A stretch of DNA of 45,053 nt from Tubiluchus corallicola. Its lineage: Eukaryota > Animalia > Priapulida. Where the stretch lies: positions 1-45,053 of the forward strand of contig JAQGDQ010001353.1 of assembly GCA_030141605.1 (NCBI GenBank). The letters are read 5' to 3'. Made by a program: the position numbers and the translations under genes. Under the pieces are notes generated by a model. It was not told the origin of the DNA. It ran no database searches and worked only from the letters and a program-made list of their open reading frames with translations. Below are positions 3,131-32,126 of the stretch, piece after piece (the stretch's first letter is position 1; every line of letters begins with the position of its first letter).

Positions 3131-4620
3131 CAAAGCTGCAAACGTGACGATTTGACCATCCGGTATAGTGTTGATAAAATCCACCATTTCATTGGTTTCA
3201 TCAACTGATGCATGTATGTCAAAAGTGTTAATAGTTGTCCCACCAACCTGCACAAATAAAGATTATATGTCATTAAATGAAAAGCTTCTAATTTAATTAA
3301 CTCATCATTTTTAATGTTTGTCGTAGCAGATATATCATCTTCTATAAAAAAGATTTCCCTCATTGTATTACTTCTGACTCAGCGATCAAAAAGCTTAGAA
3401 TGAGAAATTATGATCTTGCCGAGTTTTAGGATTGTATGTATTGTATATATGCATACAATTTGCACTATTCACTAAATTCATATTTCACTGAAAATCACCG
3501 CAAAAGAAATAAGTATTATTACCAGCATATTTGCAATTTACAGCATTCACGAACCTGTGGATAATTGAGAACGGCTATGGAAATTCCCCTATATGAAGGC
3601 TCTTCGAGTGTCATTCCTACTAAATGTACTACCTATAGTAAAACAAAGTCCAAAGTTACACTACAATAGTACGTGTTACGGAGTTGGCATGGCGGTTAGA
3701 GGGCATGCTAAATTGGATGTTAACATTAATATAAAGAACATAATAGAGATATCCTCAGTTCCTGTGGTAAAGAAGTTGGCTTCTCCCTTTTCTCTGACTA
3801 GATTGTATATTTTCCAGAAAAAATGCTGAAATAATTTAATTCATAATACATTTTGGATGTCACCAATTCAATTCTACAGCTGCTCAAACTAGCAACTGCA
3901 GGTAAATTAAAATGTTAAACCTACTGCAAACAATTTACTCGTTTATACTTTGATGTGTTCTCACTGTTTTCATTCACACTGTATCACCAGGGCTGTATTG
4001 TGCCATACTCTGTACAGTAGGAAGGACCGACCATTCCTGCGCTTGTAACTGCCTTAGTTCTTTAACAAACACAATTGCTCTCTAACATTTGTGGGTCACG
4101 ACCAGCTCGCTAGTCCATGTTGACATAACTCGTCCGGCCCAGGTTCGAGACCCAGTTGGGCTGCAAAGATTTTCGTGAACCGCATATTACATCATGTGTC
4201 AGATACCTCATGATGTGTCATGAAGTATACAACTGTGTCAGATAGCAATCATAGGTCACGTCATGGAATGGGTGTCCTGTTACCACTACGATAACAAATC
4301 ACATCATAAAAATGATGCTGCCCGTCTTAAAGAGACATGTCAATTGCCAAAGTCTGGTGCAGCTGTTGAAATATAAGTACATATTGTAAGAAGTCATAAA
4401 ATACTCACAAGAGTTGACACTCAAGTTTCTATAATAAACGCACAATACTGTGGAAAGATTCGTTTTTGCAGAAAATTATAATAAAGTAACATAATTTCAT
4501 AATGCAGGTTTTTCGAAGCTCCAAAAAACTTTACTTTTACTGTGTAAGTATATACCTCTTCACCATTCACTATTACAGACACCAAGTCTTTGCTGGACGT
4601 GACTGTTACCTCCATGGTGC
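3131..4620 (-). CDS. ILEI/PANDER (GG-type lectin, POMGnT1-stem-like) domain, N-terminal two thirds
   Basis: MEVTVTSSKDLVSVIVNG | MTLEEPSYRGISIAVLNYPQ | VGGTTINTFDIHASVDETNEMVDFINTIPDGQIVTFAAL follows the GG-domain pattern (VxSS..VxVDG..RGIxVxVLN..FD...FxxxIPxGxIV). The expected DEA..LGS..FR exon was not found in phase. Confidence 0.75.
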
Positions 4621-31600: not shown

Positions 31601-32126
31601 GTGTACCACAGTAACGTGTCTTTAAACTACAACCGCCGCTTGATATATGTGTAAAGCATAGCCGTCTGCCACGTCAGTTCAGTAGCTTCAGTTGTTTCAC
31701 GTGGACTTTACTTAATTCTGCATTAGACTGTGTGTAGAGTCATTTACTAGCAGGATCTTACTTGGGAACAAGAAAAAATGAACTAGGTAAGGTTATAGCT
31801 AGCTGTTAAAACTGTTACTATTACAATAGCATGGTTTGTGAAGCAAATGTACACAACTATGTTGTCTGATACGCTTAGCCTTTGGCCTTTTCACGATCAT
31901 CATCAATCGCTGGAACTGTGAAAAGGCTTAATTAACTCAAAAGTAGTAGACCAAATTTGTAGTTTCTGCTAAGTGAAAAAGTGATCTTCACATTTATTTA
32001 CCTCACAGAATGTGAACTCCGAGAAATCTACGCTAACGCCACGTGAGGGCGTGATATAATCTGTCGTGTCTTTGCTTGGGAAAACCACCTTGAAGCTGTC
32101 CGATGATTTACACGGGATCAGCTTCG
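3131..32126 (-). CDS. Multi-exon mosaic lectin: pentraxin + 3x CTLD + 3x ShKT + CTLD + ILEI/PANDER (GG) domain; 5' and 3' ends not resolved
   Basis: 23 GT-AG exons join in frame (~3.07 kb CDS, ~1020 aa): 32126-32002, 29786-29662, 28741-28620, 28071-27925, 24354-24182, 23592-23411, 22752-22643, 19930-19805, 18929-18722, 17140-17031, 16184-16062, 15926-15731, 15451-15286, 13571-13469, 11314-11195, 10451-10332, 8581-8468, 6069-5889, 5636-5462, 5162-5057, 4620-~4564 (donor uncertain), 3616-3555, 3247-3131. Confidence 0.88.
4104..4170 (+). mobile_element. tRNA-derived SINE head (degenerate)
   Basis: A-box-like TAGTCCATGTTG followed by B-box GGTTCGAGACC; no complete cloverleaf. Confidence 0.45.
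5057..6069 (-). CDS. C-type lectin-like domain 4 (exons 6069-5889, 5636-5462, 5162-5057)
   Basis: CPPNKHY..HCFQRV..WHEARDLC..SHLVML..|MWIGYVY..YWLDG..|DCVKM..LEQMVCSQGHQLLCEK. Confidence 0.9.
6162..6715. mobile_element. Degenerate PIF/Harbinger-type MITE
   Basis: CpG-rich island of recurrent GTCGC/GCGAC motifs ending in GGCCCCGTGAAACCCT. The left end is only partly complementary. Confidence 0.5.
8468..8581 (-). CDS. ShKT domain exon 3
   Basis: 114-nt phase 1-1 exon: CKNNDVSCDWWSNTGECEWNPAYMQHYCRAACGNC. Confidence 0.92.
10332..10451 (-). CDS. ShKT domain exon 2
   Basis: 120-nt phase 1-1 exon: CSDEVDNCSTLSQNGGCFKNADYMYKNCPSTCKVC. Confidence 0.92.
11195..11314 (-). CDS. ShKT domain exon 1
   Basis: 120-nt phase 1-1 exon: CVNTDSYCDHWAMVGECSRNPEYMSVHCRKACKLC (6-Cys ShK pattern). 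Confidence 0.92.
11500..12626. repeat. 36-bp minisatellite (~31 units, 72-bp dimeric higher order)
   Basis: Unit ~CCCTGTACAGTAAGTATAGGGCTCGGAGTATGGAGC with alternating variants. Confidence 0.97.
12756..13441 (-). mobile_element. piggyBac-like deletion derivative
   Basis: TTAA|CCCTTAACTGACCAAGG ... CCTTGGTTGGCTAAGGG|TAAA imperfect TIRs. The subterminal motif AAGACCAAG..GGTAA recurs at ~12791 and ~13318. An acidic ORF remnant lies on the minus strand (MAGTFAVQVAELEADEDEVLEDPANEDE). Confidence 0.6.
13469..15926 (-). CDS. C-type lectin-like domain 3 (exons 15926-15731, 15451-15286, 13571-13469)
   Basis: SCSGDDDVFNGDGKCMRF..AALVSCESDGLNLLTV..|MWLAAK..FEYPDGS..YTTWSGGQYP..|DPSCVVM..QWYTKMCFEKHAFLCE. 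Confidence 0.88.
14203..15072. repeat. 73-bp minisatellite (~12 units)
   Basis: GACCAGCAGT recurs at 14351, 14424, 14497 and onward. Confidence 0.97.
16062..18929 (-). CDS. C-type lectin-like domain 2 (exons 18929-18722, 17140-17031, 16184-16062)
   Basis: CPSGWTPQTGLCLKV..FYEAEVAC..HLAKVDS..|AWIGLMR..|DCAKL..VACTVELLAAVCE. Confidence 0.88.
19067..19330. repeat. (GGT/GAT)n compound trinucleotide tract
   Basis: Direct observation. Confidence 0.95.
19805..23592 (-). CDS. C-type lectin-like domain 1 (exons 23592-23411, 22752-22643, 19930-19805)
   Basis: CPDGYEAHLGFCYKF..AHDICATEGGTLAKI..|VWIGLT..WEWED..WAENEPQ|..ACIEL..YWKKTECHKNKEVVCE. Confidence 0.92.
20069..20508 (-). mobile_element. Non-autonomous Helitron, internally deleted copy
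   Basis: Both termini are intact on the minus strand (A|TCTTCTATAT...CTAG|T). It lacks the ~330-bp segment present at ~35816-36149. Confidence 0.85.
20622..20670 (+). mobile_element. 5S rRNA-derived fragment (SINE3-like or 5S pseudogene)
   Basis: AAGTTAAGCAGCATCAAAGCTGGTCAGTAAATGGCTGGGT is collinear with the 5S internal control region AAGCTAAGCAGGGTCGGGCCTGGTTAGTACTTGGATGGGA. Confidence 0.55.
20995..22341. repeat. 40-bp minisatellite with a 103-bp higher-order repeat
   Basis: Unit GCAGCTTTAACTTGGTCTATGCATGTTAGGTCTAACAAAT. A 40+40+23 block recurs at 21211, 21314, 21417 and 21520. Confidence 0.97.
23086..23271. repeat. (CT)n microsatellite
   Basis: Direct observation. Confidence 0.99.
24182..32126 (-). 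CDS. Pentraxin (PTX/LamG-like) domain exons of the mosaic gene
   Basis: Five exons give FKVVFPSKDTTDYI..FSEFTFCE|WILTY..LVSYAVEGTDNAILL..|..FHHLCVTYNNGEYALYVDG..|..GGSLMIGQEQDSVGGGFD..SFVGEITDV..|..LAQTC..KGNLIAW: pentraxin HxCxT and GQEQD motifs. Confidence 0.92.
24465..24955. repeat. 35-bp purine-rich minisatellite built from ACAGG-like pentamers
   Basis: Unit ACAGGACATGATAGGACAG(G/T)GTAGAACAGGGAAGA. Confidence 0.95.
25903..27683. repeat. 56-bp minisatellite (~32 highly homogeneous units)
   Basis: Unit GATTGACATTGCCGGCAACGTGAAGGATCTCAACAGGAAGTGACGCGCAGTGTAGA. Confidence 0.99.
28298..28465. mobile_element. Small fold-back (palindromic) MITE
   Basis: TTTGCTTTAAAAAGTTAAAATCAT..TGACAGA..CTGCTG.CATCATC pairs with GATGATG.CAGCAG..TCTGTCA..ATGATTTTAACTTTTTAAAGTAAA. 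Confidence 0.65.
31546..31928. mobile_element. MITE with perfect TIRs
   Basis: TA|AGCCTTTTCACAGTT ... AACTGTGAAAAGGCT|TA: 15-bp TIR plus TA duplication. Confidence 0.7.

What the first reader, a model, noticed from the sequence alone, without database searches (positions are those of the whole stretch)
3131..32126. Unusual pattern-recognition mosaic: PTX-CTLD3-ShKT3-CTLD-ILEI/GG
Seen: 23 exons join in frame, combining three unrelated glycan/ligand-binding folds (pentraxin, C-type lectin, GG/PANDER) with a central triplet of ShK toxin-like modules. I do not recognise this architecture from any characterised protein. Inference: a secreted or surface multi-ligand immune, mucus or venom-type effector coupling recognition to ShKT activity.
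Basis: partly seen in the sequence, partly recalled or inferred. Interest (0 to 1): 0.8.

Follow-up and report, generated by a model that had tools for sequence, protein, structure and literature searches.

The report
Secreted lectin-module mosaic, not a toxin
This invertebrate-type gene strings a pentraxin, four C-type-lectin-like domains, three ShK-type modules and half of an ILEI domain behind a predicted secretion signal; it likely encodes an acidic, calcium-dependent binding scaffold rather than a toxin, and its end likely lies outside the window, past a high-copy mobile element.

Summary
The exons are real. All 23 minus-strand exons have AG/GT ends and join without a stop. The model is incomplete at both ends. 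I found a missed signal-peptide exon (33946-33886), giving 24 exons and 1051 codons. The ILEI domain stops halfway, at an intron position shared with human POMGNT1. Its second half is not in the window; a high-copy mobile element (1-1865) sits in that intron.

The interpretation needs changes. The pentraxin keeps 5 of 7 CRP calcium ligands, with two conservative changes, but none of 3 phosphocholine-pocket residues. None of the four lectin-like domains has a canonical EPN/QPD plus WND site. All three ShKT modules lack the channel-blocking lysine and are net acidic, so a venom or 'ShKT effector' role is not supported. The chain is strongly acidic (pI about 4.5).

No protein or paper with this architecture turned up, but the searches were weak, and no RNA could test splicing. 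Best reading: a lineage-specific, exon-shuffled, secreted calcium-dependent binding scaffold. The open question is what follows the ILEI half; a POMGnT1-type glycosyltransferase is not excluded.

The parts
33886..33946 (-).
   Evidence: best donor score (3.5) and nearest of 5 candidate donors in 32200-45000; joins exon 32126 in frame. Signal function is predicted from hydropathy only.
24182..32126 (-). Pentraxin domain plus linker; exons 32126-32002, 29786-29662, 28741-28620, 28071-27925, 24354-24182
   Evidence: Pfam; whole-domain match to shark/ray CRP-like proteins; PDB pentraxins; calcium ligands mapped through
19805..23592 (-). CTLD1; exons 23592-23411, 22752-22643, 19930-19805; EPQ but WKK in place of WND
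   Evidence: (Lectin_C E=0.0063 and 0.11)
16062..18929 (-). CTLD2; exons 18929-18722, 17140-17031, 16184-16062; degenerate, no sugar-site motif
   Evidence: no Pfam hit on any of its three exons
13469..15926 (-). CTLD3; exons 15926-15731, 15451-15286, 13571-13469; acidic insert, YPE and WYT at motif positions
   Evidence: (Lectin_C E=0.00097)
11195..11314 (-). ShKT module 1 (single phase 1-1 exon); Glu where ShK has the dyad Lys
10332..10451 (-). ShKT module 2 (single phase 1-1 exon); Asp at the dyad Lys position
8468..8581 (-). ShKT module 3 (single phase 1-1 exon); Ala at the dyad Lys position
5057..6069 (-). CTLD4; exons 6069-5889, 5636-5462, 5162-5057; no sugar-site motif
   Evidence: (Lectin_C E=0.0028)
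3131..4620 (-). N-terminal half of an ILEI/GG (FAM3/PANDER, POMGnT1-stem) domain; exons 4620-4556, 3632-3555, 3247-3131; ends at a phase-0 donor just before the family's conserved Asp
   Evidence: Pfam ILEI E=7.7e-06; 5 of 7 library hits are ILEI proteins; alignment; second half absent from all six frames
1..1865 (.). End of a high-copy, GC- and CpG-rich mobile element inside the intron after the last visible exon; carries intronless plus-strand ORFs 2-358 and 298-888 (TBP-like)
   Evidence: GC 49% and CpG o/e 1.35 versus 35% and 0.70 in the flank; depth 31,603-148,351 versus 90-451 in run X1, loose ends at 1864/1865 in two runs; Pfam TBP E=2.9e-22

Best explanation
This reads as one exon-shuffled gene, at least 24 in-frame exons long, that likely encodes a secreted, strongly acidic, disulfide-rich multidomain binding scaffold whose working ligand site is likely the calcium-dependent pentraxin head. 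Shown: the exon chain, the domain order, the phase-1 introns at most module borders, the acidity (D+E 15.4%, K+R 6.5%, pI about 4.5), the kept pentraxin calcium ligands, the missing canonical CTLD sugar motifs, the missing ShK dyad lysine, and the break in mid-ILEI. Inferred mechanism: after secretion into mucus, body fluid or matrix, the pentraxin would bind anionic ligands through two Ca2+ ions, more like SAP than like phosphocholine-binding CRP. The C-terminal ILEI domain, once completed by exons beyond the mobile element, would add a second glycan-binding end. The four CTLDs and three ShKT modules would act as acidic, disulfide-braced spacers and protein- or ion-contact surfaces. The molecule would therefore cross-link or opsonise targets rather than block ion channels.
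For: Frame and phases. Signal exon. No convincing separate first exon at any module border: 6 weak candidates in 5 of 23 introns, all with donor score 2.0-2.5 against 3.5 for the real one. The CTLD4-ILEI intron is only 436 nt, with no A(A/T)TAAA in it. Pentraxin: Asp60, Asn61, Glu138, Gln139, Asp140 identical; Glu147 and Gln150 both Asp; Phe66, Thr76, Glu81 replaced by Val, Tyr, Val (ligand list from PMC6503050 passage; mapped by hand through). CTLD motifs (motif definition from PMC12842671 passages). ShKT dyad (Lys22-Tyr23 from PMC6409789 passage). A limpet mucus protein pairs a CTLD with a dyad-less ShKT and is read the same way (PMC7333891 passages). Lineage-specific CTLD architectures are the norm in invertebrates (PMC10140915 passages). 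Other copies seen in DNA contigs differ at 12 exonic codons (8 replacements, 4 silent, 0 stops, 0 Cys changes; only the best-supported rows were visible).
Against: The 3' end is unseen, so 'secreted scaffold' could be wrong if an enzyme or membrane anchor follows. Phase-1 borders are compatible whether or not the modules share a transcript, so frame alone does not prove one mRNA. Bivalve CTLs without EPN/WND can still bind sugars, and dyad-less ShKT domains can still modulate channels (PMC12842671 and PMC6409789 passages), so the motif losses lower those functions without excluding them. The mobile element in the last intron may have silenced this copy. No tissue or challenge data exist for the immune or mucus setting.
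Confidence: 0.5

Rival explanations
1. The visible part is the front of a POMGnT1-like protein. The ILEI half is a POMGnT1 stem, and the GT13 glycosyltransferase domain follows beyond the mobile element. The result would be a signal-peptide-bearing glycosyltransferase steered to its substrates by a long lectin/ShKT array.
For: The intron after 3131 is phase 0 and falls just before the conserved Asp. That Asp aligns with POMGnT1 Asp179 (PDB 5GGJ alignment; numbering fixed by Thr117). Two human POMGNT1 variants start their frameshift at Asp179 (c.535_751del; c.636C>T), which implies an exon start at c.535 (my inference). From recall, not from any call: the two upstream POMGNT1 stem introns and the phase-1 intron before the stem also match, and exon 4620-4556 resembles POMGnT1's first stem strand.
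Against: Sequence does not single out POMGnT1: by hand count 15 of 51 identities to the POMGnT1 stem and 14 of 51 to FAM3B. Whether FAM3 or CEMIP genes share the intron was not tested. ILEI domains occur on their own in many contexts (94 of 94 hits carry ILEI, none carries GNT-I, though these are mostly bacterial). The N-terminus looks like a cleavable signal, not POMGnT1's type II anchor. No GT13 sequence is in the window.
Confidence: 0.27
2. The visible part is the ectodomain of a membrane receptor (type I endocytic receptor like the mannose-receptor family, or an adhesion GPCR), with the anchor downstream. A minor version: read-through of the 3131 donor gives a short hydrophobic tail that could act as an anchor.
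For: Tandem, mostly non-canonical CTLDs are typical of mannose-receptor-family proteins (recalled; PLA2R and the IgY receptor appear only as very weak hits, E 3-8). Unchecked earlier notes report pentraxin plus CTLD in ADGRD2 ectodomains. Read-through of the last donor gives 11 more, mostly hydrophobic, codons, a stop, and AATAAA at 2898.
Against: No GAIN, 7TM or transmembrane sequence is seen. One diverged contig of another sample (X5, depth 4.3, so possibly erroneous) matches the exon only up to 8 bases into the intron and then differs, as expected for a used donor.
Confidence: 0.13
3. One reading: a venom- or mucus-type effector in which lectin domains aim ShKT ion-channel blockers at a target.
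For: Three intact six-cysteine ShKT modules. The best PDB match is the ShKT domain of a nematode-type metalloprotease (2MCR, E=3.6e-09). Dyad-less ShKT domains are not always inactive (PMC6409789 passage).
Against: The dyad Lys is absent in 3 of 3 modules; each has 6 acidic against 2-4 basic residues. ShK toxin itself scores only E 0.4-1.2. The modules sit mid-chain. The aiming CTLDs lack sugar sites.
Confidence: 0.05
4. Two neighbouring genes (a PTX-CTLD-ShKT gene and an ILEI gene) or a disabled duplicate that only looks like one open gene.
For: Phase-1 borders join by default. A weak 12-codon start candidate lies at 5026-4990. A large element sits in the last intron. Several similar copies seem to exist.
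Against: 436 nt between CTLD4 and ILEI leaves no room for a 3' end and a promoter, and holds no poly(A) signal. All 24 exons are open with intact splice sites.
Confidence: 0.05

Closest known systems
Short pentraxins (CRP/SAP; nearest database hits are shark and ray CRP-like and mucosal pentraxin-like proteins, P0001-P0008) and pentraxin-fusion proteins (Xenopus PXN-FBPL with F-type lectin domains; Polydom/SVEP1)
   Same: Whole pentraxin domain right after the signal peptide, both core cysteines, calcium ligands 5 identical and 2 conservative. Pentraxin fused to other lectin or matrix modules has precedent (PMC5712786 and PMC12549020 passages).
   Different: Phosphocholine pocket not kept (0 of 3). 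The pentraxin is N-terminal to about 820 further residues of CTLD, ShKT and ILEI, a combination not found in these searches.
Invertebrate multidomain CTLD-containing proteins (bivalve CTLDcps; limpet mucus protein P-vulgata_14)
   Same: Lineage-specific shuffling of CTLDs with other extracellular modules; CTLD together with a dyad-less ShKT in a secreted mucus protein (PMC10140915 and PMC7333891 passages).
   Different: No astacin, CUB, kringle or sushi domains here; a pentraxin and an ILEI domain are present instead; all four CTLDs are non-canonical.
POMGnT1 stem / FAM3 (ILEI, PANDER) / CEMIP-TMEM2 GG domain (Pfam PF15711)
   Same: RG-x-x-x-V-L-N and FD motifs, and an intron before the conserved Asp at the same place and phase as in human POMGNT1.
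   Different: Only the first half is in the window. It follows a CTLD rather than a type II anchor. The catalytic GT13 domain is unseen.
ShK toxin and ShKT-domain proteins (ShK, BmK1-type domain 2MCR, MMP23, ShKT-astacins)
   Same: Six-cysteine spacing and the Tyr of the dyad.
   Different: No dyad Lys, net negative charge, embedded in tandem in a 1000-residue chain.

Membership tests
Pentraxin (CRP/SAP type) | Complete pentraxin domain with the conserved disulfide | tested here: met
   About 200 residues align end to end with shark/ray CRPs, E down to 4e-32; both Cys kept
Pentraxin (CRP/SAP type) | Seven Ca2+ ligands (CRP D60, N61, E138, Q139, D140, E147, Q150) | tested here: met
   5 identical, 2 replaced by Asp; hand mapping through
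CRP proper | Phosphocholine pocket F66, T76, E81 | tested here: not met
   Val, Tyr, Val at these positions
Pentraxin (CRP/SAP type) | Pentameric assembly and Ca2+-dependent ligand binding | not testable with these tools
   The spliced domain could not be sent to the fold tools; bench test needed
C-type lectin-like domain (fold) | Cys pattern and WIG-type core motif | tested here: inconclusive
   Four repeats with matching Cys and WIG/WLA; Pfam Lectin_C only below cut-off on single exons of CTLD1, 3 and 4, none on CTLD2
Classical Ca2+-dependent C-type lectin | EPN/QPD plus WND at Ca2+ site 2 | tested here: not met
   0 of 4: EPQ/WKK, none, YPE/WYT, none (definition)
ShKT domain | Six cysteines in ShK spacing | tested here: met
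   3 of 3 above the Pfam cut-off; pattern found only at these three places in six frames
ShK-type K+ channel toxin | Lys-Tyr dyad on a basic surface | tested here: not met
   Lys replaced in 3 of 3; modules net acidic
ILEI/GG domain | Full ~140-residue domain including the second half (helix, R-D-S-W-type strand) | tested here: inconclusive
   First half present; second half not in the window, expected beyond it
POMGnT1-like glycosyltransferase | Stem intron before Asp179 | tested here: met
   the human exon boundary is inferred from variant names, not read from a gene map
POMGnT1-like glycosyltransferase | GT13 (GNT-I) catalytic domain after the stem | not testable with these tools
   Would lie outside the window; no whole genome is held
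POMGnT1-like glycosyltransferase | N-terminal type II membrane anchor | tested here: not met
   The first exon gives a short hydrophobic core of signal-peptide length; no 19-residue segment above hydropathy 1.8 in the rest
Adhesion GPCR / type I receptor | GAIN-7TM or a C-terminal transmembrane helix | not testable with these tools
   3' end outside the window

The most novel reading that the evidence does not exclude
A POMGnT1-type glycosyltransferase has swapped its Golgi membrane anchor for a secretion signal and an eight-module recognition arm (pentraxin, four CTLDs, three ShKT), giving a recognition-steered, possibly extracellular sugar-transferring enzyme that tags captured microbes or matrix glycans.
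Probability: 0.25. Interest if true: 0.68.

Novelty: new variant of a known kind. Interest (0 to 1): 0.36.

Why it matters
As it stands, it is one more lineage-specific shuffle of well-known extracellular modules, which invertebrate genomes hold in numbers. It shows that an ILEI/GG module with a POMGNT1-type intron has been recruited into a pentraxin-lectin mosaic, a pairing I did not find reported. It would matter more if the unseen 3' end holds a GT13 catalytic domain: that would be a glycosyltransferase aimed by immune-type recognition domains. One look at the flanking sequence or a long cDNA settles this. The finding also warns against reading toxin or sugar-binding function from domain names: the ShKT and CTLD modules have lost their hallmark residues.

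Tried and rejected
RNA test of splicing: no RNA holder was listed for window 2000-11450, and the one guessed-RNA run laid 0 contigs. This is no evidence either way.

Whole genome: none held, so the 3' end could not be read.

Full-length homologues: last ILEI exon against longer proteins, 0 of 3 candidates. Pentraxin exon, 8 of 24 candidates, all single-domain shark/ray pentraxins of 226-282 aa. HMMER over 1.84 billion representatives with the ILEI exon, 7 hits: 5 multi-ILEI proteins and 2 repeat artefacts, none with PTX, CTLD or ShK. Long ILEI proteins found through P0014: 0 of 94 carry PTX, CTLD, ShK or GNT-I, but they are mostly bacterial. All these queries were single short exons or a stand-in, so the blanks are weak. 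The ESM Atlas gave no answer. PDB searches with single ILEI and CTLD1 exons gave 0 hits.

Literature: ten full-text searches showed no paper describing this architecture. The three-term search ShKT + C-type lectin + pentraxin gave 1 paper, an astacin review that only lists them. PMC9835746 and PMC8878817 hold none of the terms tried. Subscription papers, InterPro and CDART were not searchable, and no supplements were opened; architecture tables in supplements could hold a match. The POMGnT1 stem structure paper was not held, so its sugar-binding residues were not checked.

PGRP fusion rejected: the upstream PGRP gene has its own last exon and stop (42133-42023).

Mobile element: no relatives of its two ORFs in viral contigs or PHROGs. 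The contig across its junction has 30 letters on the element side, one short of the tool's 31-letter rule, so the junction is not independently confirmed. An alignment of three ILEI exons with P0014 and P0015 was unusable. No fold or complex job was run, because single exons are not whole domains.
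Full report
Observation. The window is AT-rich animal-type DNA with tandem repeats in the introns. Each has an AG acceptor and a GT donor. After correcting one acceptor to 11314, they join to 3092 nt and 1030 codons without a stop. In 20 of 23 exons only one phase is open and it is the required one; the nominal chance is 8.5e-11. This is an underestimate because sites were picked among 1-4 nearby options, but the chain is clearly not chance. Pfam on single exons confirms pentraxin, three ShK modules and ILEI, and gives weak Lectin_C hits on 4 of 12 CTLD exons. The order PTX-CTLD3-ShKT3-CTLD-ILEI stands.

The model is open at both ends. The exon at 32126 starts in phase 1. 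A scan of 32200-45000 for ATG, hydrophobic core and phase-1 donor gave 5 candidate donors; the nearest, 33946-33886, has the best donor and reads as a signal peptide. With it the gene has 24 exons and 1051 codons. At the other end, alignment to seven ILEI domains from stored proteins shows the last exon stopping just before the family's conserved Asp, with about 50 residues missing. A profile of those domains finds nothing else in six frames of the window. Positions 1-1865 are a different kind of DNA: 49% GC, CpG-rich, with intronless ORFs, one of them TBP-like (E=2.9e-22). In run X1 this stretch has depth 31,603-148,351 against 90-451 in the flank, with loose ends at 1864/1865 in two runs. 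It is a high-copy mobile element in the last visible intron. From recall its end and ORF style suggest a Maverick/Polinton; no call confirmed this. The gene therefore likely continues beyond the window.

One gene or several? Most module borders are phase 1, the pattern of exon shuffling, and such borders join in frame by default. Against a split: the same start-exon scan found only 6 weak candidates in 5 of 23 introns, and the intron between CTLD4 and ILEI is 436 nt with no poly(A) signal. The upstream PGRP gene is separate, with its own stop at 42023.

Pentraxin. The domain aligns end to end with shark and ray CRP-like proteins (E to 4e-32). Using the CRP residue list in PMC6503050 (passage) and mapping by hand through, five of seven calcium ligands are identical and two are Asp. 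The phosphocholine pocket (Phe66, Thr76, Glu81) is replaced by Val, Tyr and Val. It is likely a working calcium-dependent binder of other anionic ligands.

CTLDs. The four repeats share Cys spacing and the WIG-type motif at 18-27% identity. None has EPN/QPD with WND: CTLD1 has EPQ and WKK, CTLD3 YPE and WYT, CTLD2 and 4 nothing close. PMC12842671 (passages) defines these motifs but also reports bivalve lectins that bind sugar without them. Classical sugar binding is unlikely, other binding is open.

ShKT. All three modules keep six cysteines and the dyad Tyr. Against PDB, ShK's Lys aligns with Glu, Asp and Ala; ShK itself scores only E 0.4-1.2, while a metalloprotease-derived ShKT domain scores 3.6e-09. 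Each module has 6 acidic and 2-4 basic residues. PMC6409789 (passages) calls the dyad essential for Kv binding, notes exceptions, and describes ShKT as a common passenger domain. PMC7333891 (passages) reports a limpet mucus protein with a CTLD and a dyad-less ShKT. The toxin reading is not supported.

ILEI half. By hand count over 51 columns it shares 15 identities with the POMGnT1 stem and 14 with FAM3B, so sequence does not choose. Gene structure leans to POMGNT1. The PDB chain numbering is fixed by Thr117, which makes the missing Asp equal to Asp179. Two human variants begin their frameshift at Asp179 (PMC7994789; PMC10914449; passages), which implies a phase-0 intron at the same place as here. 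That the two upstream introns also match is recalled, not shown, and FAM3 or CEMIP intron maps were not tested. That the POMGnT1 stem binds carbohydrate I saw only in reference titles. A downstream GT13 domain is possible but unseen.

Other copies. DNA contigs of run X1 show several differing variants over the same exons; the tool warns that depth is no copy number, so this is only a hint of a small family. Among the visible exonic differences, 12 codons change: 8 replacements, 4 silent, no stop and no Cys loss. One low-depth contig of another sample matches the last exon only to 8 bases into the intron, which fits a used donor at 3131.

Comparison with what is known. No protein with this architecture was found, nor any paper in ten searches. 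Both blanks are weak: queries were single exons or a stand-in, and the hits were mostly bacterial. Pentraxin-lectin fusions (Xenopus PXN-FBPL, PMC5712786; Polydom, PMC12549020; passages) and lineage-specific CTLD mosaics (PMC10140915, passages) are known kinds. Earlier scan notes, unchecked, mention pentraxin with CTLD in ADGRD2 and ILEI with bacterial glycosyltransferases.

Verdict. The feature is real, the coordinates are too narrow, and the venom reading fails its motif tests. The best reading is a secreted, acidic, calcium-dependent binding scaffold built by exon shuffling (0.5). Rivals are a POMGnT1-like enzyme with a lectin arm (0.27), a membrane receptor (0.13), a toxin effector (0.05) and split or dead genes (0.05). 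It is a new variant of a known kind; interest 0.36, rising to about 0.68 if a glycosyltransferase domain follows.

Noticed in passing
window 1-1865: End of a high-copy GC/CpG-rich mobile element with short internal repeats and two overlapping intronless plus-strand ORFs; 298-888 is TBP-like (Pfam TBP E=2.9e-22), 2-358 has no family. Maverick/Polinton-like by recall only; a TBP gene on such an element may merit its own look.
   Followed up: partly
window 43350-43138 and 42133-42023, minus strand: Last two exons of a peptidoglycan-recognition protein gene (Pfam Amidase_2 E=3.3e-10), with its own stop, 8 kb upstream on the same strand; an immune-type neighbour but a separate gene.
   Followed up: yes
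window 38003-38059, plus strand: Short AG..GT-flanked stretch encoding Gly-Pro-Pro triplets, like a collagen micro-exon; open frames at 36633-36830 and 33985-34335 may belong with it or be chance. No Pfam support.
   Followed up: partly
window 20054-20503, 35694-36462, 43366-43718: Three copies of a dispersed repeat of about 320-450 nt at 82-85% identity, one inside an intron of the gene.
   Followed up: no
window 11486-12680, 14200-15075, 20980-22340, 24400-25000, 25900-27683, 38365-39318: Large intronic or intergenic tandem repeats; they produce the long repetitive ORFs and are not exons.
   Followed up: no
window 44382-44834, plus strand: 151-codon open frame that by recall resembles the tail of a LINE-type reverse-transcriptase remnant; no Pfam hit.
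   Followed up: partly
window 10361-10398: One contig of run X1 (depth 266) differs at 7 bases within 38 nt of the second ShKT exon, more than the visible rows show for neighbouring exons; may mark a diverged paralogue.
   Followed up: partly
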